Shown here piece after piece: positions 8,148-64,000 of a DNA stretch of 64,000 bases. Within the stretch, counting starts at the first letter, position 1; every line of letters starts with the position of its first letter. The notes beneath the pieces are model-generated. The model searched no databases, was not told where the DNA came from, and worked only from the letters and a program-made list of their open reading frames with translations. The translations under genes were made by a program, and so were the position numbers. This stretch comes from Takakia lepidozioides (Eukaryota > Plantae > Bryophyta): assembly GCA_030704615.1 (NCBI GenBank), contig CM060731.1:38750001-38814000 (forward strand), given 5' to 3'.

Positions 8148-8295
8148 CTGTGACGGGCTGTGACGGGCTGTGTAACCACCCTCTACAGTGCGCTGCTGTC
8201 ACCCCTAAGGCTCATGTTGGTCTCAGTCTGTGCAAAAATTAAGGGTACCCTACAGATCCCGTATAAGTGTCTAAGTCCCTGACAGTCCTCTAACA

Positions 8296-25874: not shown

Positions 25875-26312
25875 CACTGGCGAAAGAGAGAATATTATTG
25901 ACCCGAAACCAACTACTTTGGTATCCTCCCCAAGTAGTACCTCTATCTGAATAAATGCCCGTACGTTTTACCCATAATAGTTTTTAAAAGCTAATTTTCT
26001 AGAATAAAATGATTGTGGAAGCTAGAGGAGGGCTTCTGGGAGTATTCTGCAACGACTTCATAGAAATCACGGCAAAAAATACACCCCGCCTAGCCAATGG
26101 CCTCCTTCTCCACGTGACTACTTGTCGTAGAATGCACACTAAGTTGTGTGGAGAGGAAATGATGGGAGAATGAGCCTCCCTTGGCTTATACCCTTACCCC
26201 CCGCCCTCCCCATTCATCGGGCCACTCTGTCATAATGACAGGGGCCACCTATGTATAGGTTGACCGCCTATACTTGGGTAAACTCCTTCATTTTCAAAAA
26301 TAAAAATAAAAG

Positions 26313-27682: not shown

Positions 27683-27884
27683 TATTTAAAAATAAAAAAG
27701 TGGTGGTCGTATTTAATTTAATTTTTTTCATTACTTATCTGCCACCGCCACCGTGTTGGCGACGTCGCTGCTTAAGTGGCATTTTTTTACCTAGAAGTTT
27801 TTTTACTCGAATACCGCCTAAACCTGACGTGACGTAGGTACCGTCAGCATCAGGTCTGACGCGACCTGACGCTGATGAATAGAA

Positions 27885-29480: not shown

Positions 29481-29519
29481 TGTCATTGACGACAATGACC
29501 TGCCTTTGGAGGGGGAGCT

Positions 29520-32464: not shown

Positions 32465-32790
32465 GCACTTCTGGGCATGTAAGGACAATGTAGCATCGTA
32501 GATGCGCACCAGGTGTTCAACAAAATCCCTGCATGAAATTTGGTAATATTGGCAGGGTTCACCAAGCATGGGTGTGGTAAGAATGCCTTGGAGACATATG
32601 AGCAAATGATGCAGGAAGGGGTGAAGCCTAACCAGGTCACGGTTGTTTGCATTTGCAAGGCATGTGCAACCCTGGCAGCCCTTGACAAGGGCAAAGAGGT
32701 TTGTGCTGACATAGAATTGTACCAAATATGATTCTGAACCATGCCCTTGTGGACATGTATGCCAAATGCGGGAGCCTCAAGGATGCAAAG
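32465..32790 (+). pseudogene. PLS-class pentatricopeptide repeat (PPR) gene fragment
   Basis: DAHQVFNKIP; ILAGFTKHGCGKNALETYEQMMQEGVKPNQVT..ICKACATLAALDKGKEV; after a frameshift, HALVDMYAKCGSLKDAK. In-frame stops present. Confidence 0.88.
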
Positions 32791-34314: not shown

Positions 34315-34755
34315 TCAGGCGCATGGGGCTGCTGCTTCCTCTCCCTCGTGCAAGATGTTGTCCATGATGGAAACATCCGAGTGTCTTGTCACACCGTTCT
34401 GACACTCGATGTCTATTGCTGCGCGTGCTCCTTTTTCTGTGGAAAACTGTGCATCGACAATTGGTCCCAGGGCACCCATGCTTGGCAGTTCAACTGGATG
34501 GTTACCTTCGGCATGCTCGAGGATCACAGGGGGAACACTATCTCTGTAGCTGGCAATGGTTTCCCGAAATATTTCCTCCAATGATCTAGGAACAGAGTCA
34601 GTTTTCACTGGGTCACCTTTCTCAGTGAACTTCCAGGGGAGTATAGATACATGGTCCTGTTCGATGGGAATACCTTCTTCAGGTGCCACTATCAACTCTG
34701 AAACTCCATCAATGTGCTCTTTTGGAGTTGTTGGCGCGTTGGCCACTTCGAAATC
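34315..34755 (-). CDS. predicted terminal (or penultimate) exon of the giant repeat-protein gene
   Basis: Acceptor TTCGCAG|GAT at 34756/34755 is phase 0, matching the upstream donor. Acidic ORF DFEVANAP...EEAAAPCA*. Confidence 0.6.
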   Translation of the reverse strand, partial: DFEVANAPTTPKEHIDGVSELIVAPEEGIPIEQDHVSILPWKFTEKGDPVKTDSVPRSLEEIFRETIASYRDSVPPVILEHAEGNHPVELPSMGALGPIVDAQFSTEKGARAAIDIECQNGVTRHSDVSIMDNILHEGEEAAAPCA

Positions 34756-34922
34756 CTGCGAAGTGCCACCTTCTTTAGTCATTCTTTAAGTAAAGATGAG
34801 CTCTTTTAGTCAGTTTTTCTCAATCATGATCGGCTTATGTATATCATAAACCTCGGAGAGATTAGCTAATATGAGTAAGTAGCGACGGATGGATGCAGAG
34901 TAACAATGTGGACTTGCATTAC

Positions 34923-35200
34923 CTGCACATCGTCAATCTCGCATGCTTCTCTTGAGCTTTCAATTAGGGGACCCCGAATGAAGAGAATTTCTGGACTCGT
35001 GCATATGGCCCCATCTTTCTGAGTCTCTTCGAGAGACGTCACACTTGACATTACGCTCCATGCATTGTTTTCTGCATTTGGACCTTCCCCTGTCGGTTTT
35101 ACTCTTGTGGTAGGTGCTTCAGGCATCTCTTCTGTCTGGGTTGCTGCATCCTTGTATTTCACCACCTTCGCAACGCTATATGGTGTTACTTCGTTCTCAC
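34923..35200 (-). CDS. predicted internal exon of the giant repeat-protein gene
   Basis: Acceptor ATATCAG|GT at 35201/35200 (phase 1, matching donor ACAG|GTACAG at 35362/35361). Donor CAG|GTAATG at 34923/34922. Encodes GENEVTPYS...EIDDVQ. Confidence 0.68.
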
Positions 35201-35361
35201 CTGATATGTACCAATTAAACAATTTCATGGGGTCACGATTAACTCAGTTGAAAGTCCATGAACATGCTGGATAGGCGTATTCTAGGTTAAAACTGAAGGA
35301 CAATGTCATGGGAAGTACAAAATCTACGCAAATGTTATATTTTTGCCAAATTTTGCTGTAC

Positions 35362-38300
35362 CTGTTGTAATTGCAGACGCCACCATCTCTGGCTCCTTGA
35401 ATAAACGAGCATAGAGTTCACATCTTGTCTCCAAACAGGCTACCTTGGACGCTTGTATGGGTGTAATTATTGTTGTTCTCTCATTCCACTTTCCCTCAAG
35501 TTCGTGAAGGTCCAGCTGAGGTGCTTCGTTGTTCTTCATAGTGTCGTCTTCTAGCTCATGAGCTAGCTCATTCTGCGTTCCTTTTGTACACTGTTTCTCA
35601 GCTTCAAGAGTGGATGTGATATCCACAACATCAATTGTTGACTCACTCCCATTCTCCTCGAGTTCTTTGAGTGTGTCATCTCCCTGCACAATTATTGCTT
35701 TCGCATCTGAATCTGATCCAATCTTCATTGGCTCTGTAGGCGTCTCAGCTGTATCGGTTGTCTGGAAAGGAACCGTTTCTAAGTGTATCTCTTTCCATGC
35801 AAAACCTTCCGGATCCAGTTCCCTCGTTTCCTCAATGTTAGTTGCAGTCTCAATCTGTTTCTCAAGTGTTTCAATTGCCATTTCCCTTGGTGATTCCTCA
35901 ACATTCATTGCGACTTTTGTTGGCTCCAACATGAACTCCTTGCCTGCATCCTGGCAGTCCAATTGCTTTGGTGTTTCCTCTGCCTCAATGGTGATTTTAC
36001 TCAGCTCTTTCATACTGATTTCACTTGCCTGGATAGGCAGCTCTTCAACTGAGGTTCCTGAAGTAGTATCTCCAGTAGAAGCAAGACTAGCTGCAACACT
36101 GGCTGCCTCCAAACCAACCACTTGAGATATAGTCCAAAATCTCCTTAAAAATGTTTTTGTTTTTTTCTTCTCTTCATGTCTCTTGAGCTCCACCTTCTTA
36201 GGAATTGTTGTGCGTTCAGTTTCCTCAACACCAGAACCAATATGATGAAATGGAGAATCCACAACCACATAGTCTTGATCTAGACTCGTCGCAAGATCTC
36301 TCGTACCAACACCAAACTCCTCCATCAAGTTAGCCGTAGCAATCTCACCCTTCAACTTCTCTACTTTCGTCATGGGTTCCTCTTCCAATCCCGTGGCAAG
36401 CTTGGTGACGTCTAGTGTTGCGGTCTCGGCGTCTTCATGAGCAGGTGCAACCGGGGCCTCGGCAACAGCGCCGGGTGCCGGCTCTCCGGCCTCAGCTAGT
36501 ACATCCTCCTCTGCAATTGGCGTCACTTCAGGCTCCAGCACGTCCTTTGCTTCTTCCTGCAATGGCACTTCAAGTTTTGTGGGCTCCTCCTCGGCAGCAA
36601 CACTAGCAAGGGGCTCTGTGTATGGTGCAGCCTCGACAGGTGGCTCCTCTTGATCTACGGCAGCAATTGTTAGAGCGGCCCCCTCCACGGCAGCCTCCGC
36701 TTCATCGTGAACATCGGGTGCAAATGCCTTGGGCTGGAGATCCCTTGGTAATTCGGGTTCGTCGAGTGCTGCAACTGCAGCCTCTTGTTGCGCAATGGGT
36801 TCCTCCTCCACGAGGGCAACCTCCCTCTTGGCTACCAGCTCTGCAAGAGCTTCAAGCTCGAGGTCCCTTGCTTCTTCATGGACAGGTGCAACCGGCTCTT
36901 CCTCCAACTTGGCATCATGATCCTCAACTGGTTCAATAATATCGGGGGTGGCAGCTGCTTCATCCTCCGCTGGGACTGGATCAGCGGGAGGCGATGGTTC
37001 ATCAACCTCCTTGACCAGCTCCTTCTCCTCTGACTCTGGCGGCGCAAGTACATTAGTGACCTCCAGCTCGGGTTCTTCGCGGGGTTCAACGGCGGTCTCC
37101 TCATCAATAGCGGCAGGCAGGGCAAGCTCCGTCTCCTTCTCGAGAGCAAGTTCAAGTTCAGGCTCAAGCTCCTTTGGTTCAGCTTCCAAGGCTTGCTCAA
37201 CTGGTTCCTCCTCCACGGGGGCTGGTTCCCTCTCCGCTACTAGCTCTGCAAGCGCTTCGGGCTCAAGGTCCCTTGCTTCTTCATGGGCAGGTGCAACAGG
37301 CTCTTCCTCCAACTTGGAATCATGATCCTCAACCGGTTCAACAATATTGGGGGTGACAGCTGCTTCCTCCTCCGCCGGAACAAAATCATCGGGAGGCGAT
37401 GGTTCAGCAACCTCCTCGACCAGCTCCTTCTCCTCAACAATATTATTAGGGGTGGCAGCTACTTCCTCCTCTGCCGGGACTAGATCAGGAACAGGCGATG
37501 GTTCACCAACCTCCTTGACCAGCTCCTTCTCCTCGGACTCTGGCCGTGCAACTACATCAGTGACCTCCAACTCAGGTTCTTCCGGTTCAACGGCGGCCTC
37601 CTCAACAGCGGCAAACGTCGCAGGCTCCAGCTTCTTCTCGGGAGCAAGTTCAAGTTCAGGCTCAAGCTCCTTTGGATCGGGTTCCGGGGCTTGCTCAACC
37701 AGTTCTTCCTCCACGAGGGCTGGTTCCCTCTCCGCTACCAGCTCTGCAAGCACTTCAGGCTCGAGGTCCCTTGCTTCATCATGGACAGGTGCAACCAGCT
37801 CTTCCTCAAGCTTGGCATCATGATCCTCAACTGGTTCAAGAATATCGGGGGTGGCAGTGGCTTCCTCCTCCTCCGGGTTTAGATCAGCTGGAGGTGAACA
37901 TGGTTCAGCAACCTTCTCGACCAACATTTTCTCCTCAGCCTCTGGGAGCGCAACTACATCACTTACCTCTGTCTCAGGTTCTTGGTGTTCAACGGCAGCC
38001 TCCTTTGGTTCAGCTTCCGGGGCTTGCTCAACTGGTTCCTCCTCCACGGGGGCTGGTTCCCTCTCCGCTACCAACCCTCCAAGCACTTGAGGCTGGAGGT
38101 CCCTTGCTTCTTCATGGACAGTTGCAACAGGCTCTTCCTCCAACTTAGCATCACGATCCTCAACCGGTTCAACAATATCGGGGGCGGTAGGCGCTTCCTC
38201 CTCCTCCGGAACTAGATCAGCGGGAGGCGATGGTTTAGCAACCTCCTCGACGAGCTCCTTTTCCTCGGCCTCTGGCGGCGCTATGACCTCACTTACCTCC

Positions 38301-41300
38301 GGCTCGGGTTCTTCTGGTTCAACGACGGCCTCCTCAACAACAGCAAGCGACGCAGGCTCTCTCTCCTTCTCAGGAGCAAGTTCAAGTTTAGGCTCAAGCT
38401 CCTTTGGGTCAGCTTCCGGGGCTTCCTCAACCGGTTCCTCCTCCATGGGGGCTGGTTCCCTCCCCGCTACCAGCTCTGCAAGCGCTTCAGGCTCGAGCTC
38501 CCTTGCTTCTTCATGGACAGGTGCATTGGGCTCTTCTTCCAACTTGGCATCCTGATCCTCAACCGGTTCAACAATTTCGGGGGTGGTAGCTGCTCCCTCC
38601 TCCGCCGGAACAAGATTAGCGGGAGGCGATGGTTCAGCAACCTCCTCCACCAGCTCTTTTTCCTCGGCCTCTGGGGGTGCAAGTACATCAGTGATCTTTG
38701 GTTCGGGTTCTTCGGGTTCAACGGCGGCCTCTTCGATAGTGGAAGGTGGCGCAGGCTCTGCTACCAGCTCTGCAAGCGCTTCAGGGTCGAGGTCCCTAGC
38801 TTCTTCATGGACAGGTGAATTAGGCTCTTCCTCCAACATGGCATCATAATCTTGAACCGGTTCAACTATACCGGGGGTGGCAGTTGCTTCCTCCTCCGCC
38901 GGGACTAGATCAGCGGGAGGCAATGGTTCAGCAACCTCCTCGACCAGCTCCTTCTTCTCGGCCTCTAGCGGCGCAACTACATCAGTTACATCATCAAGTA
39001 TATCAGCGACCTCCGGCTCGGGTTCTTCTAGTTCAATGGCGGCCTCCTCAACAGCAGCAGACGACTCTCTCCCCTTCTCGGGAGCAAGTTCAAGTTCAGG
39101 CTCAAGCTCCTTTGGTTTAGCTTCCGGGGCTTCCTCAACCGGTTCCTCCTCCACGGGGGCTGGTTCCGTCTCCACTACCAACTTTGCAAGCGCTTCAGGC
39201 TCGAGGTCCCTTTCTTCTTCATGGACATGTGCAACGGGCTCTTCTTCCAACTTGGCATCATAATCCTCAATCGGTTCAAAAATATCAGGGGTGGCAGGCA
39301 CTGCTTCCTCCTCCGCCGGGACTAGATCAGCGGGTGGAAATGGTTCAGCAACCTCCTCGACGAGCTCCTTCTCCTCAACCTCTGGCGACGCTATTACCTC
39401 ACTTACTTCCGGCTCGGGTTCATCCGGTTCAACGGCGGCCTCCTCAACAACGGTAGGTAGCGCAGGCTCGGTCTCCTTCTCGGGAGCAAGTTCAAGTTCA
39501 GGCTCAAGTTTCTTTGGCTCAGCTTCGAGGGCCTGCTCAACCGGTTCCTCGTCCACGGGGGCTGGCTTCCTCTCCGCTACCAGCTTTGCAAGCGCTCGAT
39601 CGGGCTTGAGGTCCCTTGCTTCTTCATGGACAGGTGCAACAGGCTCTTCCTCCAACTTGGCATCATGATCCTTAACCAGTTCAACAATATCGGGGGTGGC
39701 AGGCGCTTCCTCCTCCTCCGGAACTAGATACGCAGGAGGTGATGGTTCAGCAACCTCCGCGACGAGCTCCTTTTCCTCGGCCTCTGGCAGCGCTATTACC
39801 TCACTTACCTCCGGCACGGGTTCTTCCGGTTCGACGACGACCTCCTCAACAGCGGCACGCAGCGCAGGCTCGGTGTCCTTCTCAGGAGCAAGTTCAAGTT
39901 CAGGCTCAAGCTCCTTTGGTTCAGATTCCGAAGCTTCCTCAACCCATTCCTCCTCCACGGGGGCTGGTTCCCTCTTCGCTCCCAGCTCTGCAAGCGCTTC
40001 AGGCTCGAGGTCCCTTGCTTCTTCATGGACAGGTGCAACCAGCTCTCCTTCCAACTTGGCATCATGATCCTCAATCGGTTCAACAATATCGGGGGTGGCA
40101 GGCAGTGCTTCCTCCGCCGGTACTAGATCAGCGGGTGGCAATGGTTCAGCAACCTCCTCGACCAGCTCCTTCTCCTCGGCCTCTTGGGGCGCTATTACCT
40201 CACTTACCTCCGGCTCAGGTTCTACTGGTTCGATGGCGGCCTCCTCAACAGCGGCAGGCAGCGCAGGCTCGGTCTCTTTCTCGGGAGCAAGTTCAAGTTC
40301 AGGGTCAAGCTCCTTTGGTTCACATTCCGGGGCTTCCTCATCCGGTTCCTCCTCCACGGGGGCTGGTTCCCTTTCCGCTACCAGCTCTGCAAGCGCTTCA
40401 CGCTCGAGGTCCCTTGCTTCTGCATGGACAGGTGCAATGGGCTCTTCTTCCAACTTGGCATCATGATCCTCAATAATATCGGGGGTGGCAGGCGCTGCTT
40501 CCTCCTCCGCTGGGACTAGATCAGCGGGTGGCAATGGTTCAGCAACCTCCTCGACCAGCTCCTTCTCCTCGGCTTCTGGTGGCGCTATTACCTCACTTAC
40601 CTCGGGCTTGGGTTCTTCCAGTTCCACGACGGCCTGCTCAACAGCGGCAGGCAGCGCAGGCTCGGTGTCCTTCTCGGGAGCAAGTTCAAGTTCAGGCTCA
40701 AGCTCCTTTGGTTCAGATTCCGGGGGTTCCTCAACCCGTTCCTCCTCCACGGGGGTTGGATCCCTCTCCGCTACGAGCTCTGCAAGCGCTTCAGGCTCGA
40801 GGTCCCTTGCTTCTTCATGTACAGGTGCAACGGGCTCTTCTTCCAACTTCGCATCATGAAACTCAATAATATCGGGGGTGGCAAGCGCTGCTTCCTCCTC
40901 CGCCGGGATAAGATCAGCGGGTGGCAATGGTTCCGCGACCTCCTCGACCAGCTCCTTCGCCTCGGCCTCTGGCGGCGCTATTACCTCACTTACCTCCGGC
41001 TCTGGTTCTTCAAGTTCCACGACGGCTTGCTCAATAGTGGCAGGCAGCGCAGGCTCGGTCTCCTTCTCGGGAGCAAGTTCAAGTTCAGGCTCAAGCTCCT
41101 TTGGTTCAGATTCCAGGGCTTCCGCAACCGGTTCCACCTCCATGGGGGCTGGTTCCCTCTCCGCTACCAGCTCTGCAAGCGCTTCACGCTCGAGGTCCCT
41201 TGCTTCTTCATGGAGAGGTGCAACGGGCTCTTCTTCCAACATGGCATCCAGATCCTCAACAATGTCGGGTGTGGCAGGCGCTCCTCCCTCCTCCGCCGGG

Positions 41301-44300
41301 ACTAGATCAGCGGGTGGAAATGGTTCGGCAATCTCCTCATTCAGCTCGTTCTCCTTGGTTTCTGGCAGCGCTATTACCTCACTTACCTCCGGCTCGGGTT
41401 CTTCCCGTTCAACGACGGCCTCCTCAACAGCGGCAGGCAGCGCAGGCTCGGTCTCCTTCTCGGGAGCAAGTTCAAGTTCGGGCTCAACCTCCTTTGGTTC
41501 AGATTCCGGGGGTTCCTCCTCCACGGGGGCTGGTTCCGTCTCCGCTACCAGCTCTGCAAGTGCTTCCGGCTTGAGGTCCCTTGCTTCTTCATGAACAGGT
41601 GCAACGGGCTCTTCTTCCAACTTGGCATCATGATCCTCAATAATATCGGGGGTGACAGGCGCTGCTTCCTCCTCCGCCGGGATTAGATCAGCGGGTGGCA
41701 ATGGTTCAGCACCCTCCTCGACCAGCTCCTTCTCCTCGGCCTCTGGCGGTGCTATTACCTCACTTACCTCCGGCTGGGGTTCTTCCGGTTCCACGACGGC
41801 CTGATCAACAGCGGCAGGCAGCGCAGGCTCGGTCTCCTTCTCAAGAGCAAGTTCAAGTTCAGACTCAAGCTCCTTTGGTTCAGCTTCCGAGGCTTGCGCA
41901 TCCAGTTCCTCCTCCATGGGGGCTGGTTCCCTCTCCGCTACCAGCTCTGCAAGCCCCTCAGGTTCGAGGTCCCTTGCTTCTTCATGGACAGGTGCAACCG
42001 CCTGTTCTTCCAACTTGGCATCATTCTCCTCAACAATATCGGGGGTGGCAGGCGCTGCTTCCTGCTCTGTCGGGACTAGATCAGCGGGTGGCAATGGTTC
42101 AGCAACCTCCTCGTCCAGCTCATTCTCCTCGGCCTCTGGCGGCGCTATTAACTCACTTACCTCCGGCTTGGGTTCTTCTAGTTCGACGGCGGCCTCCTCA
42201 GCAGCGGCATGCAGCGCTAGCTCTGTCTCCTTCTCGAGAGCAAGTTCAAGTTCAGGCTCAAGCTCCTTTGGTTCAGCTTCCGGGGCTTCCTTAACCGGTT
42301 CCTCCTCCACTGGGGCTGGTTCCCACTTTGCTACCAGTTCTGCAAGCGCTTCAGGCTCGAGGTCCCTTGCTTCTTCATGGACAGGTGCAACGGGCTCTTC
42401 TTCCAACTTGGCATCGTGATCCTCAACAATGTTGGGGGTGGCAGGTGGTGCTTCCTCCTCCACCGGGACTACATCAGCGGGTGGCAATGGTTCAGCAACC
42501 TCCTCGACCAGCTCCTTCTCGTTGGCCTCTGGCGGCGCTATTACCCACTTACCTTCGGCTCGGGTTTCATCGGTTCCACGGCGGCTCACAGCGGCATACA
42601 GCGCAGGCTCCGCCTCATTCTCGGGAGCAAGTTCAAGTTCAGGGTCAATCTCCTTTGGTTCAGATTCCAGGGCTTGCTCAACCGGTTCCTCCTCCACGGG
42701 TGCTGGTTCCCTGTGCGCTACTAGCTCTGCAAACGCTTCAGGCTCGAGGTCCCTTGCTTCTTCATGGACATGCGCAATGGGCTCTTCTTCCAAATTGGCA
42801 TCCTGATCCTCAACCGGTTTAACAATATCGGGGGTGGTAGGCGCTGCTTCCTCATCCGTGGCAACCTCTACAAGCTGCTCCTTTTCCACGGCCTTTGGAG
42901 GTGCAAGTACATCAGTGACCTCCGGCTCGGGTTCTTCGGGTTCAACGGCGGCTCCCTGAACAGCAGTAGGCAGCGCAAGCTCTGTGTGCTTCTCCGGAGC
43001 AAGATGTTCAAGTTCAGGGTCAAGCTCCTTTGGTTCATATTCCGGGGCTTCCTCAACTGTTTCCTCCTCCACGGGGGCTGGTTCCCTCTCCGCTACCAGC
43101 TCTGCAAGCGCTTCAGGCTGGAGGTCCCTTGCTTCTTCATGGACAGGTGCAACCGCCTGTTCTTCCAACTTGGCATCCTGAACCTCAACAATGTCGGGGT
43201 GGCAGGTGCTGCTGCCTCCTCCGCCGGAACTAGATCAGCGGGTGGCAATGGTTCAGCAACCTCCTCGACCAGCTCCTTCTCCTCGGCCTCTTGCGGCGCT
43301 ATTAACTCACTTACCTCCGGCTCGGGTTCTTCTGGTTCGACGGCGGCCTCCTCAACAGCGGCAGGCGACGCAGGCCTAGTCTCCTTCTCGGGAGCAAGTT
43401 GAAGTTCAGACTCAAGCTCCTTTGGTTCAGCTTCCGGGGCTTCCTCAACCGGTTCCTCCTCCACTGGGGCTGGTTCCCTCTCTGTTTCCAGTTGTGCAAT
43501 CGCTTTAGGCTTGAGGTCCCTTGCTTCTTCACGGACAGGTGCAACGGGCTCTTCTTCCAGCTTGGCATCGTGATCCTCAACAATGTCGGGGGTGGCAGGT
43601 GCTGCTTCCTCCTCCGCCGGGACTAGATCAGCGGGTGGCAATGGTTCATCAACCTCCTCGACCAGCTCCTTCACGTTGGCCTCTGGCGGCGCTTTTACCT
43701 CACTTACCTTTGGCTCGGGTTCATCGGATTCCACGGCGGCCTCCTCAACAACGGCATACAGCGCAGGCTCCGCCTCATTCTCTGGAGCAAGTTCAAGTTC
43801 AGGCTCAATCTCCTTTGGTTCAGATTCCAGGGCCTGCTCAACCAGTTCTTCATCCACAGGTGCTGGTTGCCTCTGCGCTACCAGCTCTGCAAACGCGTCA
43901 GCGAGGTCCCTTGCTTCTTCATGGACATGGTGCAACGGGCTCTCTCTTCCAAATTGGCATCCTGATCCTCAACCGGTTTAACAATATCGGGGGTGGCAGC
44001 GCTGTTCCTCCTCCTCCGCGCAACCTCTCAAGCTGCTCCTTTTCCTCGGCCTTTGGAGGTGCAAGTACATCATTGACCTCTGGCTCGGGTTCTTCGGGTT
44101 CAACGGCGGCCTCCTGAACAGCAGTAGGCGGCGCAAGCTCTGTGTCCTTCTCGGGAGCAAGATGTTCAAGTTCAGGGTCAAGCTCCTTTGGTTCATATTC
44201 AAGGGCTTCCTCAACCGGTTCCTCCTCCACGGGGGCTGGATCCCTCTCCGCTACCAGCTCTGCAAGCGCTTCAGGCTGGAGGTCCCTTGCTTCTTCATGG

Positions 44301-53300: not shown

Positions 53301-56300
53301 CGGGGGTGGCAGGTGCGGCTTCCTCCTCCGCCGGTACGAGATCAGTGGGTGGCAATGGTTCAACAACCTCCTCGACCAGCTCCTTCTCCTCGGCCTCTTG
53401 CGGCGCTATTAACTCACTTACCTCGGGCTCGGGTTCTTCTGGTTCGACGGCGGCCTCGTCAATAGCGGCAAGCGCCGCAGGCTTAGTCTCCTTCTCGGGA
53501 GCAAGTTCAAGTTCAGGGTCAAGCTCCTTTGGTTCAGCTTCCGGGGCTTCCTCAACCGGTTCCTCCTCCACGGGGGCTGGTTCCCTCTCTGCTACCAGTT
53601 CTGCAAGCGCTTCAGGCCTGAGGTCCCTTGCTTCTTCACGGACAGGTGCAACGGGCTCTTCTTCCAACTTGGCATCCTGATCCTCAACAATGTCGGGGTG
53701 GCAGGTGCTGCTCCTCCTCCGCCGGTACTAGATTAGTGGGTGGCAATGGTTCAGTAACCTCCTCGACCAGCTCCTTCTCCTCGGCCTTTGGGGGCGCTAT
53801 TCCCTCACTTACCTTTGTCTCAGGTTGTTCCGGTTCGACGGCGGCCTCCTCAATAGCGGCAGGCAGGGCAGGCTCGGTCTCCTTCTCTGGAGCAAGTGCA
53901 AGTTCAGGGTCAAGCTCCTTTGGTTCATATTCAGGGGCTTCCTCAACCGGTTTCTCCTCCACGGGGGCTAGTTCCCTCTCCGCTACAAGCTCTGCAAGCG
54001 CTTCAGGCCCGAGGTCCCTTGCTTCTTCATAGACAGGTGCAACGGGCTCTTCTTCCAAATTGGCATCCTGATCCTCAACCGGTTTAACAATATCGGGGGT
54101 GGCAGGCGCTGCTTCCTCCTCCGCGGCAACCTCTACAACCTGTTCCTTTTCCTCGGCCTTTGGAGGTGCAAGTACATCAGTGACCTCCTCCGGCTCGGGT
54201 TCTTCGGGTTCAGCTGCAGCCTCCTCAACAGCAGTAGGCGGCGCAAGCTCTGTGTCCTTTTCGGGAGCAAGATGTTGATGTTCAGGGTCAAGCTCCTTTG
54301 GTTTATATTCCGGGGCATCCTCAACCGGTTCCTCCTCCACTAGGGCTGGTTCCCTCTCCACTACCAGCTCTGCAAGCGCTTCAGGCTCGAGGTCCCTTGC
54401 TTCTTCATGGACAGGTGCAACCGCCTGTTCTTCCAACTTGGCATCCTGAACCTCAACATTGTCGGGGGTGGCAGGCGCTGCTTCCTCCTCTGCCGGGACT
54501 AGATCAGCGGGTGGCAATGGTTCAGCAACGTCCTCGACCAGGTTCTTCTCCTCGGCCTTTTGCGGCGCTATTATCTCACTTACCTCTGGCTCGGGTTCTT
54601 CTGGTTCGACGGCGGCCTCCTCAACAGCGGCAGGCGACGCAGGCTTAGTCTCCTTCTCGGGAGCAAGTTCAAGTTCAGGCTCAAGCTCCTTTGGTTCAGA
54701 TTCCGGGGCATCCTCAATTTTGGGGGCGGCAGGCGCTGCTTCGTCCTTCGCCGCATCACCTTCCACCAGCTCCTTTTCCTTGGCCTTTGGCGGTGCAAGT
54801 ACATTAGTGACCTCGGGCTCGGGTTCTTCGGATTCAACGACGGCCTGCTCAACACCAACAGGCGGCGCAGGCTCGGTCTCTTTCTCGGGAGCAAGCTGTT
54901 CAAGTTCAGGCTCAAGCACCTTTGGTTCAGATTCTGGGGCTTCCTCAACCGGTTCCTCCTCCACGTGGGCTGGATCCCTCTCTGCTACCAGCTCTGCAAG
55001 CGCTTCAGGATGGAGGTCTCTTGCGTCTTCATGGACAGGTGCAACGGGCTCTTCTTCCAACTTGGCATCATGATCCTCAACAATGTAGGTGGTGGCAGGC
55101 GTTGCTTCCTCCTCCGCCGGAACAAGATCAGCGGGAGGCGATTGTTCAGCAACCTCCTCCACCAACTTCTTTTCCTCAAGCTCATTTGGTTCAAATTCCG
55201 GGGCTTCCTCAACCGGTTCCTCCTCCACGGGGGATGGTTCCCTCTCCGCTACCAGCTCTGCAAGCGCTTCACGCTCGAGGTCCCTTGCTTCTTCATGGAC
55301 ACGTGGAATGGGCTCTTCTTCCAACTTGGCATCATGATCCTCAACAATATTGGGGGTGGCAGGCGCTGCTTCCTCCTCCGCCGGGACTAGGTCAGCGGGT
55401 GGCAATGGTTCAGCAACCTCCTCCACCAGCTCCTTCTCCTCCGCCTCGGGCGGCGCTATTACCTCACTTACCTCCGGCTTGGGTTCTTCGGGTTCAAAGG
55501 CGGCCTCCTCAACAGCGGCATGCAGCGCAGGCTCCGTCTCCTTCTCGGGAGCAATTTGAAATTGAGGCTGAAGCTCCTTTGGTTCAGATTCCGGGGCTTC
55601 CTCAACCGATTCCTCCTCCACGGGGGTTGATTCCCTCTCCACTGCGTGATCTGGAAGCGCTTCGGGCTGGAGGTCCCTTGCTTCTTTATGGACAGGTGCA
55701 ACGGGCTCTTCTTCCAACATGGCAACGTGATCCTCAACAATGTCAGTGGTGGCAGGTGCTACTTCCTCCTCCGCCGGTACGAGATTAGTGGGTGGCAATG
55801 GTTCAGCAACCTCCTCGACCAGCTCCTTCACCTCGGCCTTGGGTGGCGCTATTACCTCACTTACCTTCGGCTCGGGTTCTTCCGGTTCGACGGCGGCCTC
55901 CTCAATAGCGGCAGGCAGGGCAGGCTCGGTCTCCTTCTCGGGAGCAAGTGCAAGTTCAGGGTCAAGCTCCTTTGGTTCATATTTAGGGGCTTCCTCAACC
56001 GGTTCCTCCTCCACGGGGGCTGGTTCCCTCTCCGTTACTAGCTCTGCAAGCGCTTCAGGCCCGAGGTCCCTTGCTTCTTCATAGTCAGGTGCAACAGGCT
56101 CTTCCTCCAACTTGGTATCCTTATCCTCAACAATGTTGGGGGTGGCAGGCGCTGCTTCCTCCTCCGCCGGGACTAGATCAGCGGGTGGCACTGGTTCAGC
56201 AACCTCCTCAACCAGCTCCTTCTCCTCAGCCTCTGGCGGCGCTATTACCTCACTTACCTCCGGCTCGGGTTCTTCCGGTTCCACAGCGGCCTCCTCAACA

Positions 56301-59300
56301 ACGGCATGGAGCGCAAGCTCAGTCTTGTTCTCGGGAGCAAGTTGAAGTTCAGACTCAAGCTCCTTTGGTTCAGCTTCCGGGGCTTCCTCAACCGGTTCCT
56401 CCTCCACTGGGGCTGGTTCCTTCTCCTCGGCCTCTTGCGGCGCTATTAACTCACTTACCTCCGGCTCGGGTTGTTCTGGTTCGACGGCGGCCTCCTCAGC
56501 AGCGGCACGCGATGCAGGCTTAGTCTCCTTCTCGGGAGCAAGTTCAAGTTCAGGGTCAAGCTCCTTTGGTTCAGCTTCCGGGGCTTCCTGAACCGGTTCC
56601 TCCTCCACTGGGGCTGGTTCCCTCTCTGCTACCAGTTCTGCAAGCGCTTCAGGCCTGAGGTCCCTTGCTTCTTCACGGACAGGTGCAACGGGCTCTTCTT
56701 CCAACTTGGCATCCTGATCCTCACCAATGTCGGGGGTGGCAGGTGCTGCTTCCTCCTCCGCCGGTACTAGATTAGTGGGTGGCAATGGTTCAGCAACCTC
56801 CTCGACCAGCTCCTTCTCCTCGGCCTCTTGCGGCGCTATTAACTCACTTACCTCCGGCTCGGGTTCTTCTAATTCGACGGCGGCCTCCTCAACAGCGGCA
56901 GGCGACGCAGGCTCACTCTCCTTCTCGGGAGCAAGTTCAAGTTCAGACTCAAGCTCCTTTGGTTCAGCTTCCGGGGCTTCCTCAACAGGTTCCTTCTCCA
57001 CTGGGGCTGGTTCCCTCTCTGCTATCACTTCTGCAAGCGCTTCAGGCCTGAGGTCCCTTGCTTCTTCACGGACCGGTGCAACGGGCTCTTCTTCCAAATT
57101 GGCATCCTGATCCTCAACAATGTCGGGGGTGGCAGGTGCTGCTTCCTCCTCCGCCGGTACTAGATTAGTGGGTGGCAATGGTTCAGCAACCTCCTCGACC
57201 AGCTCCTTCTCCTCGGCCTCTGGTGGTGCTATTCCCTCACTTACCTTGGTCTCGGGTTGTTCTGGCTCGACGGCGGCCTCCTCAATAGCGGCAGGCAGGG
57301 CAGGCTCGGTCTCCTTCTCGGGAGCAAGTGCAAGTTCAGGGTCAAGCTCCTTTGGTTCATATTCAGGGGCTTGCTCAACCGGTTCCTCCTCCACGGGGGC
57401 TGGTTCCCTCTCCGCTACAAGCTCTGCAAGCGCTTCAGGCCCGAGGTCCCTTGCTTCATAGACAGGTGCAACGGGCTCTTCTTCCAAATTGGCATCCTGA
57501 TCCTCAACCGGTTTAACAATATCGGGGGTGGCAGGCGCTGCTTCCTCCTCCGCGGCAACCTCTACAAGCTGCTCCTTTTCCTCGGCCTTTGGAGGTGCAA
57601 GTACATCAATGACCTCCTCCGGCTCGGGTTCTTCGGGTTCAACGGCGGCCTCCTCAACAGCAATAGGCAGCGCAAGCTCTGTATCCTTCTCGGGAGCAAG
57701 ATGTTCAAGTTCAGGGTCAAGCTCCTTTGGTTCATATTCCGGGGCTTCCTCAACCGGTTCCTCCTCCACGGGGGCTGGTTCCCTCTCTGCTACCAGCTCT
57801 GCAAGCGCTTCAGGCTCGAGGTCCCTTGCTTCTTCATGGACAGGTGCAACCGCCTGTTCTTCCAACCTGGCATCCTGAACCTCAACAATGTCGGGGGTGG
57901 CAGGTGCTGCTTCCTCCTCCGCTTGGACAAGATCAGCGGGTGGCAATGGTTCAGCAACCTCCTCGACCAGCTCCTTCTCCTCGGCCTCTTGCGGCCCTAT
58001 TAACTCACTTTCCTCCGGCTCGGGTTCATCTGGTTCGACGGCGGCCTCCTCAACAGCGGCAGGCGACGCAGGCTCAGTCTCCTTCTCGGGAGCAAGTTCA
58101 AGTTCAGACTCAAGCTCCTTTGGTTCAGCTTCCGGGGCGTCCTCAACCAGTTCCTCCTCCACTGGGGCTGGTTCCCTCTCTGCTACCAGTTCTGCAAGCG
58201 CTTCAGGCCTGAGGTCCCTTGCTTCTTCATGGACAGGTGCAACCGCCTGTTCTTCCAACTTGGCATCCTGAACCTCAACAATGTCGGGGGTGGCAGGCGC
58301 TGCTTCCTCCTCCGCCGGGACAAGATCAGCGGGTGGCAATGGTTCAGCAACCTCCTCGACCAGCTCCTTCTCCTCGGCCTCTTGCGGCCCTATTAACTCA
58401 CTTACCTCCAGCTCGGGTTCTTCTGGTTCGACGGCGGCCTCCTCAACAACGGCAGGCGACGCAGGCTCAGTCTCCTTCTCGGGAGCAAGTTCAAGTTCAG
58501 ACTCAAGCTCCTTTGGTTCAGCTTCCGGGGCTTCCTCAACCGGTTCCTCCTCCACTAGGGCTGGTTCCGTCTGTACTACTTGTTCTCCAAGCGCTTCAGG
58601 CCTGAGGTCCCTTGCTTCTTCACGGACAGGTGCAACGGGCTCTTCTTCCAACTTGGCATCCTGATCCTCACTAATGTCGGGGGTGGCAGGTGCTGCTTCC
58701 TCCTCCGCCGGAACTAGATTAGTGGGTGGCGATGGTTCAACAACCTCCTCCACCAGCTCCTTCTCCTCGGCCTCTTGCGGCACTATTACCTCACTTACCT
58801 CCGGCTCGGGTTCTTCCGGTTCCACAGCGGCCTCCTCGGCATGCAGCGCAAGCTCAGTCTCGTTCTCGGGAGCAAGTTTAAGTTCAGACTCAAGCTCCTT
58901 TGGTTCAGCTTCCGGGGCTTCCTTAACCGGTTCCTCCTCCACTGGGGCTGGTTCCCTCTCTGCTACCAGTTCTGCAAGCGCTTCAGGCCTGAGGTCCCTT
59001 GCTTCTTCACGGACCGGTGCAACGAGCTCTTCTTCCAAATTGGCATCCTGATCCTCAACAATGTCGGGGGTGGCAGGTGCGGCTTCCGCCTCCGCCGGTA
59101 CTAGATTAGTGGGTGGCAATGGTTCAGCAACCTCCTCGACCAGCTCCTTCTCCTCGGCCTCTTGCGGCGCTATTAACTCACTTACCTCCGGCTCGGGTTC
59201 TTCTGGTTCGACGGCGGCCTCGTCAACAGCGGCAGGCGACGCACGCTCACTCTCCTTCTCGGGAGCAAGTTCAAGTTCAGACTCAAGCTCCTTTGGTTCA

Positions 59301-62300
59301 GCTTCCGGGGCTTCCTCAACCGGTTCCTCCTCCACTAGGGCTGGTTCCCCCTCTGCTACTTGTTCTGCAAGCGCTTCAGGCCTGAGGTCCCTTGCTTCTT
59401 CACGGACAGGTGCAACCGCCTGTTCCTCCAACTTGGCATCCTGAACCTCAACAATGTCGGGGGTGGCAGGCGCTGCTTCCTCTTCCGCCGGGACAATATC
59501 AGCGGGTGGCAATGGTTCAGCAACCTCCTCGACCAGCTCCTTCTCCTCGGCTTCTTGCGGCCCTATTAACTCACGTACCTCCGGCTCGGGTTCATCTGGT
59601 TCGACGGCGGCCTCCTCAACAGCGGCAGGCGACGCAGGCTCAGTCTCCTTCTCGGGAGCAAGTTCAAGTTCAGACTCAAGCTCCTTTGGTTCAGCTTCCG
59701 GGGCTTCCTCAACCGGTTCCTCCTCCACGAGGGCTAGCTCCCTCTCTGCTACCACCTCTCCAAGCGCTTCAGGCCTGAGGTCCCTTGCTTCTTCATGGAC
59801 AGGTGCAACGGGCTCTTCTTCCAACTTGGCATCCTGATCCTCACCAATGTCGGGGGTGGCAGGTGCTGCTTCCTCCTCCGCCGGCACTAGATTAGTGGGT
59901 GGCAATGGTTCAGCAACCTCCTCGACCAGCTCCTTCTCCTCGGCCTCTTGCGGCGCTATTAACTCACTTACCTCCGGCTCGGGTTCTTCTAATTCGACGG
60001 CGGCGTCCTCAACAACGGCAGGCGACGCAGGCTCTCTCTTCTTCTCGGGAGCAAGTTCCAAATCAGACTCAAGCTCCTTTGGTTCAGCTTCCTGGGCTTC
60101 CTCAACCGGTTCCTCCTCCACTGGGGCTGGTTCCCTCTCTGCTACCAGTTTTGCAAGCGCTTCAGGCCTGAGGTCCCTTGCTTCCTCATAGACAGGTGCA
60201 ACGGGCTCTTCTTCAAAATTGGCATCCTGATCCTCAACAATGTCGGGGGTGGCAGGTGCTGCTTCCTCCTCCGCCGGTACTAGATTAGTGGGTTGCAATG
60301 GTTCAGTAACCTCCTCGACCAGCTCCTTCTCCTCGGCCTCTGGTGGTGCTATTCCCTCACTTACCTTGGTCTCGGGTTGTTCTGGTTCGACGGCGGCCTC
60401 CTCAATAGCGGCAGGCAGGGCAGGCTCGGTCTCCTTCTCGGGAGCAAGTGCAAGTTCAGGGTCAAGCTCCTTTGGTTCATATTCAGGGGCTTCCTCAACC
60501 GGTTCCTCCTCCACGGGGGCTGGTTCCCTCTCCGCTACAAGCTCTGCAAGCGCTTCAGGCCCGAGGTCCCTTGCTTCTTCATAGACAGGTGCAACGGGCT
60601 CTTCTTCCAAATTGGCATCTTGATCCTCAACCGGTTTAACAATATCGTGGGTGGCAGGTGCTGCTTCCTCCTCCGCGGCAACCTCTACAAGCTGCTCCTT
60701 TTCCTCGGCCTTTGGAGGTGCAAGTACATCAGTGACCTCCTCCGGCTCGGGTTCTTCGGGTTCAACGGCGGCCTCCTCAACAGCAATAGGCGGCGCAAGC
60801 TCTGTGTCCTTCTCTGGAGCAAGATGTTCAAGTTCAGGGTCAAGCTCCTTTGGTTCATATTCCGGGGATTCCTCAACCGGTTCCTCCTCCACAGGGGCTG
60901 GTTCCCCCTCCGCTACCAGCTCTGCAAGCGCTTCAGGCTCAAGGTCCCTTACTTCTTCATGGACAGGTGCAACCGCCTGTTTTTCCAACTTGGCATCCTG
61001 AACCTCAACAATGTCGGGGGTGGCAGGCGCTGCTTCCTCCTCCGCCGGGACAAGATCAGCGGGTGGCAATGGTTCAGCAACCTCCTCCACCAGCTCCTTC
61101 TCCTCGGCCTCTTGCGGCCCTATTAACTCACTTACCTCCGGCTCGGGTTCATCTGGTTCGACGGCGGCCTCCTCAACAGCGGCAGGCGACGCAGGCTCAG
61201 TCTCCTTCTCGGGAGCAAGTTCGAGTTCAGACTCAAGCTCCTTTGGTTCAGCTTCCGGGGCGTCCTCAACCGGTTCCTCCTCCACGAGGGCAAGTTCCCT
61301 CTCTGCTACCAGTTCTGCAAGCGCTTCAGGCCTGAGGTCCCTTGCTTCTTCACGGACAGGTGCAACGGGCTCTTCTTCCAACTTGGCATCCTGATCCTCA
61401 CCAATGTCGGGGTGGCAGGTGCTGCTTCCTCCTCCGCCGGTACTAGATTAGGGGGTGGCAATGGTTCAGCAACCTCCTCGACCAGCTCCTTCTCCTCGGC
61501 CTCTTGCGGCGCTATTAACTCACTTACCTCCGGCTCGGGTTCTTCTGGTTCGACGGCGGCCTCCTCAACAGCGGCAGGCGACGCAGGCTCACTCTCCTTC
61601 TCGGGAGCAAGTTCAAGTTCAGACTCAAGCTCCTTTGGTTCAGCTTCCGGGCTTCCTCAACCGGTTCCTCCTCCACTAGGGCTGGTTCCGTCTGTACTAC
61701 TTGTTCTCCAAGCGCTTCAGGCCTGAGGTCCCTTGCTTCTTCACGGACAGGTGCAACGGGCTCTTCTTCCAACTTGGCATCCTGATCCTCACCAATGTCG
61801 GGGGTGGCAGGTGCTGCTTCCTCCTCCGCCGGTACTAGATTAGTGGGTGGCAATGGTTCAGCAACCTCCTCGACCAGCTCCTTCTCCTCGGCCTCTTGCG
61901 GCGCTATTAACTCACTTACCTCCGGCTCGGGTTCTTCTGGTTCGACGGTGGCCTCCTCAACAGCGGCAGGCGACGAAGGCTCACTCTCCTTCTTGGGAGC
62001 AAATTCAAGTTCAGACTCAAGCTCCTTTGGTTCAGCTTCCGGGGCTTCCTCATCCGGTTCCTCCTCCACTGTGGCTGGTTCCCTCTCTGCTACCAGTTCT
62101 ACAAGCGCTTCATGCCTGAGGTCCCTTCCTTCTTCACGGATAGGTGCAACGGGCTCTTCTTCCAACTTGGCATCGTGATCCTCAACAAAGTCGGGGGTGG
62201 CAGGGGTTGCTTCCTCTTCCGCCGGTACTAGATTAGTGGGTGGCAATGGTTCAGCAACCTCCTCGACCAGCTCCTTCTCCTCGGCCTCTGGTGGCGCTAT

Positions 62301-64000
62301 TACCTCACTTACCTGGGTCTCGGGTTCTTCCGGTTCGATGGCGGCCTCCTCAATAGCGGCAGGCAGGGCAGGCTCGGTCTCCTTCTCGGGAGCAAGTGCA
62401 AGGTCAGGGTCAAGCTCCTTTGGTTCATATTCCGGGGCTTCCTGAACCGGTTCCTCCTCCACGGGGGCTGGTTCCCTCTCCGCTATAAGCACTGCAAGCG
62501 CTTCAGGCCTGAGGTCCCTTGCTTCTTCATAGACAGGTGCAACGGGCTCTTCTTCCAAATTGGCATCCTGATCCTCAACCGGTTTAACAATATCGGGGGT
62601 GGCAGGCGCTGCTTCCTCCTCCGCGGCAACCTCTACAAGCTGCTCCTTTTCCTCGGCCTTTGGAGGTGCATGTACATCAGTGACCTCCTCCGGCTCGGGT
62701 TCTTCGGGTTCAACGGCGGCCTCCTCAACAGCAATAGGCGGCACATGCTCTGTGTCCTTCTCGGGAGCAAGATGTTCAAGTTCAGGGTCAAGCTCCTTTG
62801 GTTCATATTCCGGGGCTTCCTCAACCAGTTCCTCCTCCACGGGGGCTGGTTCCCTCTCCGCTACAAGCTCTGCAAGCGCTTCAGGCCCGAGGTCCCTTGC
62901 TTCTTCAGATACAGGTGCAACGGGCTCTTCTTCCAAATTGGCATCCTGATCCTCAACCGGTTTAACAATATCGGGGGTGGCAGGCGCTGCTTCCTCCTCC
63001 GCGGCAACCTCTACAAGCTGCTCCTTTTCCACGGCCTTTGGAGGTGCATGTACATCAGTGACCTCCTCCGGCTCGGGTTCTTCGGGTTCAACGGCGGCCT
63101 CCTCAACAGCAATAAGCGGCACATGCTCTGTGTCCTTCTCGGGAGCAAGATGTTCAAGTTCAGGGTCAAGCTCCTTTGGTTCATATTCCGGGGCTTCCTC
63201 AACCAGTTCCTCCTCCACGGGGGCTGGTTCCCTCTCCGCTACAAGCTCTGCAAGCGCTTCAGGCCCGAGGTCCCTTGCTTCTTCAGATACAGGTGCAACG
63301 GGCTCTTCTTCCAAATTGGCATCCTGATCCTCAACCGGTTTAACAATACGGGGGTGGCAGGTGCTGCTTCCTCCTCCGCGGCAACCTCTACAAGCTGCTC
63401 CTTTTCCTCGGCCTTTGGAGGTGCAAGTACATCAGTGACCTCCTCCGGCTCGGGTTCTTCGGGATCAACGGCAGCCTCCTGAACAACAGTAGGCGGCGCA
63501 AGCTCTGTGTCCTTCTCGGGAGCAAGATGTTCAAGTTCAGGGTCAAGCTCCTTTGGTTCATATTCCGGGGCTTCCTCAACTGGTTCCTCCTCCACGGGGG
63601 CTGGTTCCCTCTCCGCTACCAGCTCTGCAAACGCTTCTGGCTCGAGGTCCCTTGCTTCTTCTTGGAGAGGTGCAACCGCCTGTTCTTCCAACTTGGCATC
63701 CTGAACCTCAACAATGTCGGGGGTGGCAAGTGCTGCTTCCTCCTCCGCCGGGACTAGATCAGCGGGTGGCAATGGTTCAGCAACCTCCTCGACCAGCTCA
63801 TTCTCCTCGGCCTCTTGCGGCACTATTAACTCACTTACCTCCGGCTCGGGTTCTTCTGTTCGTTGGCGGCCTCCTCAATAGCGGCAGGCGACGCAGGCTT
63901 ACTCTCCTTCTCGGGAGCAAGTTCATGTTCAGACCCAAGCTCCTTTGGTTTAGCTTCCGGGGCTTCCTCAACCGGTTCCTCCTCCACTGGGGCTGGTTCC
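35362..64000 (-). CDS. giant exon encoding a Glu/Pro/Ala-rich tandem-repeat protein (titin PEVK-like composition); 5' end outside the window; apparent frameshifts
   Basis: Colinear ORF segments of 2614, 2127, 2565, 596 and 386 aa, plus shorter ones, all encode the same repeat. Breaks coincide with small indels. No nonsense codons were noticed in the repeat frame. Confidence 0.85.
36790..64000 (-). repeat. coding tandem array of ~70 units of 393 bp (131 aa) or 378 bp (126 aa)
   Basis: Shadow-ORF starts recur at 393-bp spacing (57888, 58281, 58674) and 378-bp spacing (62599, 62977). Unit: DHDAKLEEEPVAPVHEEARDLEPEALAELVAEREPAPVEEEPVEEAPEAEPKELEPELELAPEKETEPALPAAVEEAAVEPEEPEPEVSEVIAPPEAEEKELVEEVAEPLPPADLVPAEEEAAPATPDIVE. 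Confidence 0.97.

What the first reader, a model, noticed from the sequence alone, without database searches (positions are those of the whole stretch)
34315..64000. A plant 'titin-like' giant: ~9,800+ codons, ~70 copies of a 131-aa Glu/Pro/Ala repeat in one >28-kb exon
Seen: more than 27 kb of tandem units keep one coding frame, with no nonsense codon noticed, although the units differ at many positions. The consensus unit is about 33% Glu, 18% Pro and 18% Ala (my count) and almost lacks Cys, Trp, Met and Gly. The array runs in frame into a unique acidic tail and phase-compatible GT-AG exons. Known: this composition resembles the titin PEVK region and small acidic plant proteins (Hev b 5-like, VEE-motif cation binders), while typical very large plant proteins are ~5,000 aa. 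Inference: a megadalton, intrinsically disordered polyanion that could act as an entropic spring or spacer, a Ca2+/metal sponge, or a desiccation or sperm-cytoskeleton component. I recognise no family for it.
Basis: partly seen in the sequence, partly recalled or inferred. Interest (0 to 1): 0.88.

Follow-up and report, generated by a model that had tools for sequence, protein, structure and literature searches.

The report
Megadalton acidic repeat protein in plant
This transcribed and spliced plant gene carries about 70 different copies of a 131-amino-acid acidic repeat and likely encodes one floppy protein of 9,800 or more residues, predicted to work as a tethered, calcium-sensitive spacer or spring inside the cell; acidic giants of similar size are already annotated in other plant genomes.

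Summary
The gene is real, but the 'one open frame' claim needs correcting. On the - strand, 36743-64000 holds about 70 distinct 393-bp units, followed by a 708-aa tail. As assembled, the frame breaks 18 times. The breaks are mostly 1-2-nt indels in short homopolymers. Units show 0 of 48 possible nonsense changes against 12.2 expected, and pairwise dN/dS is 0.56. Contigs of two studies splice both predicted introns exactly, and repeat variants found only 15-24 kb upstream occur in such a run. The product would be at least 9,793 aa (1.06 MDa, pI 4.05) and is predicted disordered. No homologue was found. It is not titin. It fits a listed but uncharacterised class of acidic plant giants (PMC6681478), with RBB1 the nearest functional analogue. 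The mechanism is inferred and the N-terminus lies outside the window.

The parts
36743..64000 (-). Tandem array of about 70 units of 393 bp (131 aa); each unit is three related sub-repeats of 33, 48 and 50 aa; continues past the window edge
   Evidence: among 61 units mean pairwise identity 87.5%, maximum 98.9%
35362..64000 (-). Giant coding exon, at least 28,639 nt (array plus 460 codons of unique tail); single exon inferred, no intron-like island inside the array
   Evidence: donor at 35361 confirmed; lowest GC of any 60 nt in the array 0.42, introns 61-64% AT
42546..63858 (-). 18 frame breaks in the assembly: 63858, 63346, 61649, 61413, 53698, 52542, 46013, 45378, 45355, 45000, 44959, 44409, 44020, 44001, 43937, 43200, 42586, 42546
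35362..36742 (-). Non-repetitive acidic tail, first part; no homologue found
   Evidence: single-sequence fold pLDDT 40
36116..36187 (-). Most basic patch of the regions scanned (net +6 in 18 aa, core KKTKTFLRRFW, hydrophobic moment 0.71); candidate membrane or cytoskeleton anchor
   Evidence: inside a predicted helix, pLDDT 62 in that block
35201..35361 (-). Intron 1, GT-AG, 161 nt, phase 1
   Evidence: skipped in contigs of X5 and X6, present in X1 and X4
34923..35200 (-). Penultimate exon, 278 nt
35127..35153 (-). KDAATQTEE, a TQT anchor of the LC8 (dynein light chain) client type; the only TQT in 9,793 aa
   Evidence: motif definition from PMC6607443 passages; binding untested
34756..34922 (-). 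Intron 2, GT-AG, 167 nt, phase 0
34315..34755 (-). Coding part of last exon, 146 aa plus TGA
33704..34314 (-). 3' untranslated region; the spliced contigs reach 33841 (X5) and 33704 (X6); the true end is not shown by contigs

Best explanation
This is a transcribed, spliced plant gene whose repeat array is under selection to stay coding, and it likely makes one intrinsically disordered polyanion of 9,800 or more residues that is predicted to work as a tethered entropic spacer or spring in the cytosol. Shown: transcription and splicing of the 3' end, absence of nonsense changes in the units, a net charge of -0.27 per residue, and contig support for the missing base at two frame breaks. Inferred: (1) the other breaks are also assembly errors and the full-length mRNA is translated; (2) the array is an expanded Glu/Pro/Ala coil, about 3.7 um in contour length, whose function depends on length and charge more than on exact sequence; (3) the C-terminal tail would anchor it through its one basic amphipathic helix (to an anionic membrane such as the tonoplast, or to cytoskeleton) and perhaps dimerise through the TQT motif; (4) Ca2+ or pH would tune its extension by screening the glutamates, as reported for titin's E-rich PEVK motifs. 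It would then hold membranes or cytoskeletal tracks apart, in the way suggested for Arabidopsis RBB1. My odds: intact coding gene 0.85; disordered polyanion if made 0.95; tethered spacer or spring as the main job about 0.5 overall.
For: Splicing at both predicted introns in 2 of 2 RNA-like runs from two studies, with intron bins at depth 0. Repeat pieces in run X5 match variants that the assembly holds only at 58040 and 59606 (67 nt) or only at 49202-61593 (56 nt), so transcription likely reaches 15-24 kb upstream of the 3' end. 0 of 48 possible nonsense changes in 61 units against 12.2 expected; pairwise dN/dS 0.56; third positions vary most (0.102 against 0.073 and 0.061). The five indels shared by 3-19 units with a length divisible by 3 outnumber the one frame-breaking indel shared by 3 units. 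At 61408 the missing G is put in for 766 of 766 (X1) and 638 of 638 (X3) depth units, and 8 of 8 listed pieces crossing either tested site carry a gap. No break falls in the older, more diverged 5.8 kb at the 3' end. Disorder: mean hydropathy 0.42 below the 0.51 boundary; fold from a 47-unit alignment has pTM 0.13 and one short helix; no PDB match and no Pfam match below E 0.1. No hydrophobic segment in the tail (best 19-mer 1.23). Most basic patch and single TQT lie in the tail. Analogues: RBB1 is large, cytosolic, partly membrane-associated and conserved mainly at its C terminus (PMC4411111); E-rich PEVK motifs make titin a calcium-dependent spring (PMC5424795).
Against: No protein evidence, no full-length transcript and no N-terminus (no genome held), so a signal peptide or folded domain upstream could change the picture. 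Only 2 of 18 breaks were laid; 113 pieces were not shown; one X5 contig (depth 89.3) over 61408 has no G listed and may end inside the G run or lack it. Amino-acid constraint is modest: distinct non-synonymous variants are 274 against 334.6 expected, a ratio of 0.82, and pairwise values are not independent. Tail differences between individuals are 11 non-synonymous to 5 synonymous, close to neutral, and one of the 11 (36681) is seen in all four runs and may be an assembly error. No homologue was found, so neither the basic helix nor the TQT motif can be shown to be conserved. Many TQT peptides do not bind LC8 (PMC6607443). Composition alone cannot separate a spring from an ion buffer.
Confidence: 0.5

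Rival explanations
1. Same intact giant protein, but its main job is chemical: a high-capacity, low-affinity Ca2+/cation buffer or fixed-charge osmotic gel, a scaled-up VEE-motif cation binder.
For: 194 VEE and 178 EEE triplets and 33% acidic residues in the array; Glu positions are among the better kept in the unit (0.89). The PCaP/VEE cation-binder family is recalled; my search on it returned no usable paper.
Against: Buffering does not need a single 1-MDa chain, which is costly to transcribe and translate. E>K is the commonest replacement among units (33 variants), and Leu, Ala and Val positions are kept as well as Glu.
Confidence: 0.2
2. The gene is transcribed but some breaks are real, so this allele makes truncated protein, or the working products are much shorter isoforms made from internal starts or from the donor-like sites in the units.
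Against: Breaks are mostly private to one unit and sit in short homopolymers; DNA contigs of the likely source sample restore the frame at the sites tested; real decay should also leave nonsense substitutions, and none was seen; RNA contigs run unbranched through both real acceptors.
Confidence: 0.15
3. A secreted wall or mucilage protein, an acidic Pro/Ala-rich glycoprotein resembling arabinogalactan proteins.
For: Pro plus Ala is 31% of the array; the N-terminus is unseen, so a signal peptide is possible.
Against: P+A+S+T is only 35% and Glu 29%; there is no hydrophobic C-terminal GPI signal (best 19-mer 1.23); the basic helix and TQT motif suit a cytosolic protein.
Confidence: 0.1
4. A non-coding satellite, or an array inflated by the assembler, next to a small gene.
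For: Frame breaks in the assembly; dN/dS not far below 1.
Against: No two of 61 units are identical (maximum 98.9%); nonsense changes are absent; open stretches reach 2,636 codons and run into the spliced tail; DNA contig depth is 1.4-1.7 times what the window's copies explain, not less (a rough measure).
Confidence: 0.02

Closest known systems
Acidic 'titin-like' or unknown giants annotated in plant proteomes (PMC6681478): Punica PKI66547.1 11,234 aa pI 3.87; Sphagnum Sphfalx0133s0012.1 9,126 aa pI 4.05; Selaginella XP_002985373.1 8,462 aa pI 4.02; Marchantia OAE35580.1 7,651 aa pI 4.83; Gossypium XP_017639830.1 7,209 aa pI 4.21
   Same: Size class (at least 9,793 aa, 1.06 MDa), pI 4.05, plant, no function assigned.
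   Different: Their sequences were not in hand, so shared repeat or homology is unknown. A search for six of these accessions found only that survey. Here transcription, splicing and selection are shown.
Arabidopsis RBB1 (At5g40450) and its orthologous group
   Same: Very large plant protein without known domains, whose body has few alignable relatives; RBB1 is cytosolic, partly membrane-bound and affects vacuole bulbs and trans-vacuolar strands (PMC4411111).
   Different: RBB1 is 2,890 aa (putative orthologues to 3,715) and is recognised by a 75-aa C-terminal region; no such match could be shown here. The word 'repeat' does not occur in that paper.
Titin PEVK region
   Same: Long Pro/Glu/Val-rich repeats, predicted disorder, E-rich motifs of the kind that make PEVK calcium-sensitive (PMC5424795).
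   Different: Ala replaces Lys (A 15.8%, K 4.0%), P+E+V+K 57.5%, unit 131 aa rather than about 28, no Ig, Fn3 or kinase domain in the window. An analogue, not a homologue.
Giant-exon repeat proteins of animals (MUC16; AHNAK and neurofilament-H recalled)
   Same: A huge repeat region in one exon. The exon here is at least 28.6 kb, longer than the largest human internal exon, MUC16 exon 3 at over 21,000 nt (PMC3467050).
   Different: Mucins are secreted and Ser/Thr-rich; this array is 4% Ser+Thr. No sequence link was found.
Plant VEE-motif cation-binding proteins (PCaP1/PCaP2, vacuolar Ca-binding proteins; recalled)
   Same: Acidic disordered chain rich in VEE, paired with a short basic segment.
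   Different: Those are small proteins by recall; this one is about 50 times longer, with the basic patch near the C terminus. No paper on them was read.

Membership tests
Titin/connectin | Arrays of Ig and Fn3 domains, kinase domain | tested here: not met
   No such Pfam family in 2,635 aa of array end plus tail, in two repeat stretches or in the last two exons; N-terminus unseen
Titin/connectin | PEVK segment with about 28-residue repeats rich in P, E, V, K | tested here: not met
   Unit 131 aa (sub-repeats 33, 48, 50); P+E+V+K 57.5%, K 4.0%, A 15.8%; repeat size from PMC5424795
Titin/connectin | Calcium-dependent entropic elasticity | not testable with these tools
   Needs force spectroscopy
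RBB1 group | Very large plant protein without known domains | tested here: met
   At least 9,793 aa; no Pfam or PDB match in the parts scanned
RBB1 group | Conserved 75-aa C-terminal region | tested here: inconclusive
   RBB1 sequence not in hand. The 466-aa tail found 0 hits among 1.84 billion representatives, but the last 238 aa were only scanned against Pfam and, for the last exon, metagenome contigs
RBB1 group | Cytosolic and tonoplast-associated, needed for trans-vacuolar strands | not testable with these tools
   Needs localisation and a mutant
Acidic 'titin-like' plant giants (annotation class, PMC6681478) | Over 7,000 aa and pI about 3.9-4.8 | tested here: met
   9,793 aa in the window, pI 4.05, assuming the frame breaks are errors
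Acidic 'titin-like' plant giants (annotation class, PMC6681478) | Sequence homology to the listed proteins | not testable with these tools
   The giant-length search covered only 4,613-5,000 aa and found none of 2,440 candidates significant
LC8 client | TQT anchor inside a disordered region | tested here: met
   One KDAATQTEE at 35153-35127; definition in PMC6607443
LC8 client | Binding to LC8 | not tested
   No LC8 sequence was in hand and no complex was predicted; many TQT peptides do not bind
VEE-motif cation binders (recalled) | Many VEE motifs in an acidic disordered chain | tested here: met
   194 VEE in 9,085 aa; the motif definition is recalled
VEE-motif cation binders (recalled) | Ca2+ binding; myristoylated basic N-terminus | not testable with these tools
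   N-terminus outside the window
Arabinogalactan proteins | P+A+S+T above about 50% (recalled) and often a GPI signal | tested here: not met
   35%; no hydrophobic C-terminal segment; signal peptide not testable
Non-coding satellite DNA | No reading-frame constraint, not part of a spliced mRNA | tested here: not met
   0 of 48 nonsense changes, 12.2 expected; in frame with a spliced tail

The most novel reading that the evidence does not exclude
Land plants make a titin-scale elastic protein of their own: a 1-1.5 MDa, 4-5 um polyanion from one exon of more than 28 kb, anchored by a short C-terminal helix and tuned by Ca2+. It would be one case of a class of giant acidic springs that moss, liverwort, lycophyte and flowering-plant lineages each build from unrelated repeats. 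If the array runs 8-14 kb past the window, as contig depth hints, it would exceed every land-plant protein listed in PMC6681478.
Probability: 0.2. Interest if true: 0.8.

Novelty: new member of a known kind. Interest (0 to 1): 0.52.

Why it matters
Plant proteomes list several acidic proteins of 7,000-11,000 aa under labels such as 'titin-like', and it is easy to dismiss them as annotation noise. This case shows that such a gene can be spliced, transcribed far into its array and purged of stop codons. It also shows that ordinary annotation would cut it into fragments at assembly errors. If the protein is made, it offers a clean test of whether plants use giant disordered polyanions as mechanical spacers, and of how a plant transcribes a 28-kb exon with 47 donor-like sites without splicing at them. 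The repeat and tail have no detectable relatives, so the sequence family is new even though the kind of protein is not.

Tried and rejected
Whole genome: none held, so the N-terminus and paralogues could not be seen. Homologue searches: the 466-aa tail gave none in the 817-2,330 aa class, none in the 256-816 aa class and 0 among 1.84 billion representatives; the 2,635-aa end of the gene gave none among 2,440 candidates of 4,613-5,000 aa. Atlas: no usable hit for the tail; for two units the best scores were 0.83 and 0.76, within chance. Metagenome scan with the last exon: 159 pattern matches, 1 locus, L001, rejected as a chance 9-residue match in a frame with stops, although it beat 1,000 shuffles because it had been picked for that word. 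Pfam: only sub-threshold hits for the gene. PDB: 0. The single-sequence fold of the tail (pLDDT 40) is uninformative. No run is on record as RNA; X5 and X6 are taken as RNA because their contigs skip both introns. RNA contig depth per repeat copy upstream is 0.05-0.14 of the tail's, but contig depth cannot rank parts of a gene, so it is not used. The 145-nt joint at 61484-61630 occurs in DNA runs too, so it is not splicing. Selection on the GTAAGT site beyond shared descent was looked at and not shown. Three look-ups of earlier findings returned nothing. Nine paper searches listed no functional study of a megadalton acidic plant repeat protein; the library lacks most subscription papers, and I opened no supplements. 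The plant lineage was not determined.


Full report
Anatomy. The gene lies on the - strand and is cut by the window's right edge. Tandem Repeats Finder gives a 393-bp period over most of 39-64 kb. Splitting at a recurring motif gives 72 segments between 64000 and 36701, 29 of them exactly 393 bp. The 131-aa unit is itself three related sub-repeats of 33, 48 and 50 aa. Among 61 full-size units, nucleotide identity averages 87.5% (range 80.7-98.9%). Unit types recur in higher-order blocks, and the 3' units are the most diverged. The array runs in frame into 460 unique codons and two more exons, ending at TGA 34317-34315. The surroundings, Ty3/gypsy remnants and a broken PPR fragment, fit a plant; I did not determine the lineage, and no genome is held.

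The frame is not continuous as assembled. The longest open stretches are 43234-35327 (2,636 codons), 61447-53687 (2,587) and 52550-46014 (2,179). A codon-model path needs 18 switches, 12 of them in 42.5-46.1 kb and none in the last 5.8 kb. Against sister units the breaks are mostly 1-2-nt losses or gains in short runs of one base, and the same loss of one C from a run of five recurs at three sites. Of 44 distinct indel events in 61 units, the five shared by 3-19 units with a length divisible by 3 look inherited. 23 of the 26 frame-breaking events are private, some being parts of one compound gap.

Test of the breaks. I laid 61380-61700, which holds two breaks, on contigs of two DNA runs of the likely source sample and two RNA-like runs. 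At 61408 a G is put in for 766.2 of 766.2 depth units in X1 and 638.3 of 638.3 in X3; in X6 all depth carries an inserted letter (30.7 G, 7.9 A). At 61648 a G is put in for about half the depth in each run, and the two listed DNA contigs without it stop at the run with three letters unaligned. All 8 listed pieces that cross either site carry a gap. I read the breaks as long-read consensus errors in a repeat that short reads cannot polish (inference, about 0.85).

Coding constraint. Relative to the majority unit, 61 units show 113 synonymous, 274 non-synonymous and 0 nonsense single-base variants. 48 nonsense changes are possible and 12.2 would be expected at the rates seen for the same mutation types (Poisson chance about 5e-6, my arithmetic); codons near gaps were left out. 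Mean pairwise dN/dS is 0.56 over 1,830 non-independent pairs, and by distinct variants the ratio is 0.82. Selection therefore guards the open frame strongly and the exact residues mildly. In the tail and the last array codons, 16 coding differences between individuals are 11 non-synonymous, 5 synonymous and 0 nonsense; the one indel is in the 3' UTR.

Expression. No run is on record as RNA. But single contigs of X5 and X6, from two studies, skip exactly 161 and 167 nt with GT-AG ends, and intron bins have depth 0, while DNA runs X1 and X4 are continuous. X5 also holds repeat pieces that match the assembly only at 58040 and 59606, or only from 49202 upwards. Transcription therefore likely extends 15-24 kb up the array, with the caveat that X5 is another individual. 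A single transcript is not shown. Three DNA contigs have 1.4-1.7 times the depth that the window's copies explain; depth is a poor copy count, but it argues against over-expansion and hints at 8-14 kb more array.

The product. Within the window it is 9,793 aa, 1.06 MDa, pI 4.05. The array is E 28.6, A 15.8, P 15.1, V 9.9, L 8.5, D 4.5, K 4.0%, with net charge -0.27 per residue and hydropathy below the disorder boundary. AlphaFold2 on a 47-unit alignment gives pTM 0.13 and one 10-residue helix. Contour length would be about 3.7 um and radius of gyration 30-47 nm by recalled scaling laws. The tail has no transmembrane or GPI-type segment. It has the most basic patch of the regions scanned (+6 in 18 aa; three long array stretches reach 0, +1 and +3) with the highest hydrophobic moment, 0.71, and a single TQT motif of the LC8-client type (PMC6607443, passages).

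Relatives. None was found: word-indexed, set length classes; phmmer, 1.84 billion proteins, 0 hits; Atlas; Pfam, PDB; one chance hit. The last 238 aa were not in the large protein searches, and proteins above 5,000 aa were not covered.

Mechanism. I favour a tethered entropic spacer or spring in the cytosol (0.5). Selection keeps length, frame and composition more than sequence, which is what a spacer needs. A single 1-MDa chain makes little sense as a mere ion buffer, and the only candidate binding elements sit in a short tail. Ca2+ tuning is borrowed from titin's E-rich motifs (PMC5424795, passages). The cellular setting is borrowed from RBB1, a 2,890-aa cytosolic, partly membrane-bound protein that affects vacuole bulbs and strands (PMC4411111, passages and sections 15 and 17); a cotton orthologue is a fibre-quality candidate (PMC5103610, passages). 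Rivals are a cation buffer (0.2), truncated or short products (0.15), a secreted wall protein (0.1) and a satellite or artefact (0.02).

Comparison and novelty. It works like a PEVK or RBB1-type spacer by inference but fails titin membership, and RBB1 membership is open. PMC6681478 (passages and first part of section 5) lists plant proteins of 7,181-11,234 aa with pI 3.9-4.8 in Punica, Sphagnum, Selaginella, Marchantia, Klebsormidium and cotton, and larger, less acidic ones in sunflower (12,581 aa) and pear (11,880 aa), so size alone is not new. Searching six of those accessions found only that survey, and my other searches listed no functional study. The exon, at least 28,639 nt, exceeds the largest human internal exon, over 21,000 nt (PMC3467050, passages). 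PMC9825244 (passages) reports that long internal exons tend to encode disordered regions. No supplements were opened; that survey's Table S1 may list further giants. Verdict: a new, well-supported member of a listed but uncharacterised kind; interest 0.52.

Noticed in passing
window 37968-63840, - strand: 47 perfect AG|GTAAGT splice-donor-like sites, at most one per unit, all at a codon boundary and closer to consensus than the gene's two real donors. RNA contigs run unbranched through both real acceptors, so no use with those acceptors was seen. They could allow length isoforms or bind U1 along the long exon.
   Followed up: partly
window 36681: All four runs laid, including the likely source DNA, differ from the assembly at this base, so it is probably an assembly substitution error.
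   Followed up: partly
window 42500-46100: 12 of the 18 frame breaks cluster here, which suggests a locally poor consensus or a join between reads or haplotypes.
   Followed up: partly
window 32480-32800, + strand: Broken PPR gene fragment (Pfam PPR_2, E 1.4e-7) with stops and a frame change, about 1 kb from the giant gene's 3' end and facing it.
   Followed up: partly
window 7400-8211 and 12985-16943 (- strand), 27990-29500 (+ strand): Ty3/gypsy-type retrotransposon remnants: zinc knuckle, protease, RT, RNase H, integrase and SH3 pieces in several frames.
   Followed up: partly
window 3085-5135: Array of about 120-bp AT-rich tandem repeats, about 80% alike.
   Followed up: no
window 23681-27697: Several arrays of a 50-bp unit with a palindromic CGACCGCC...GGCGGTCG core and A-tracts, possibly transposon subterminal repeats.
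   Followed up: no
window 49000-64000: Units fall into recurring types (378-bp and 393-bp variants) arranged in higher-order blocks, as in satellite evolution, yet coding.
   Followed up: partly
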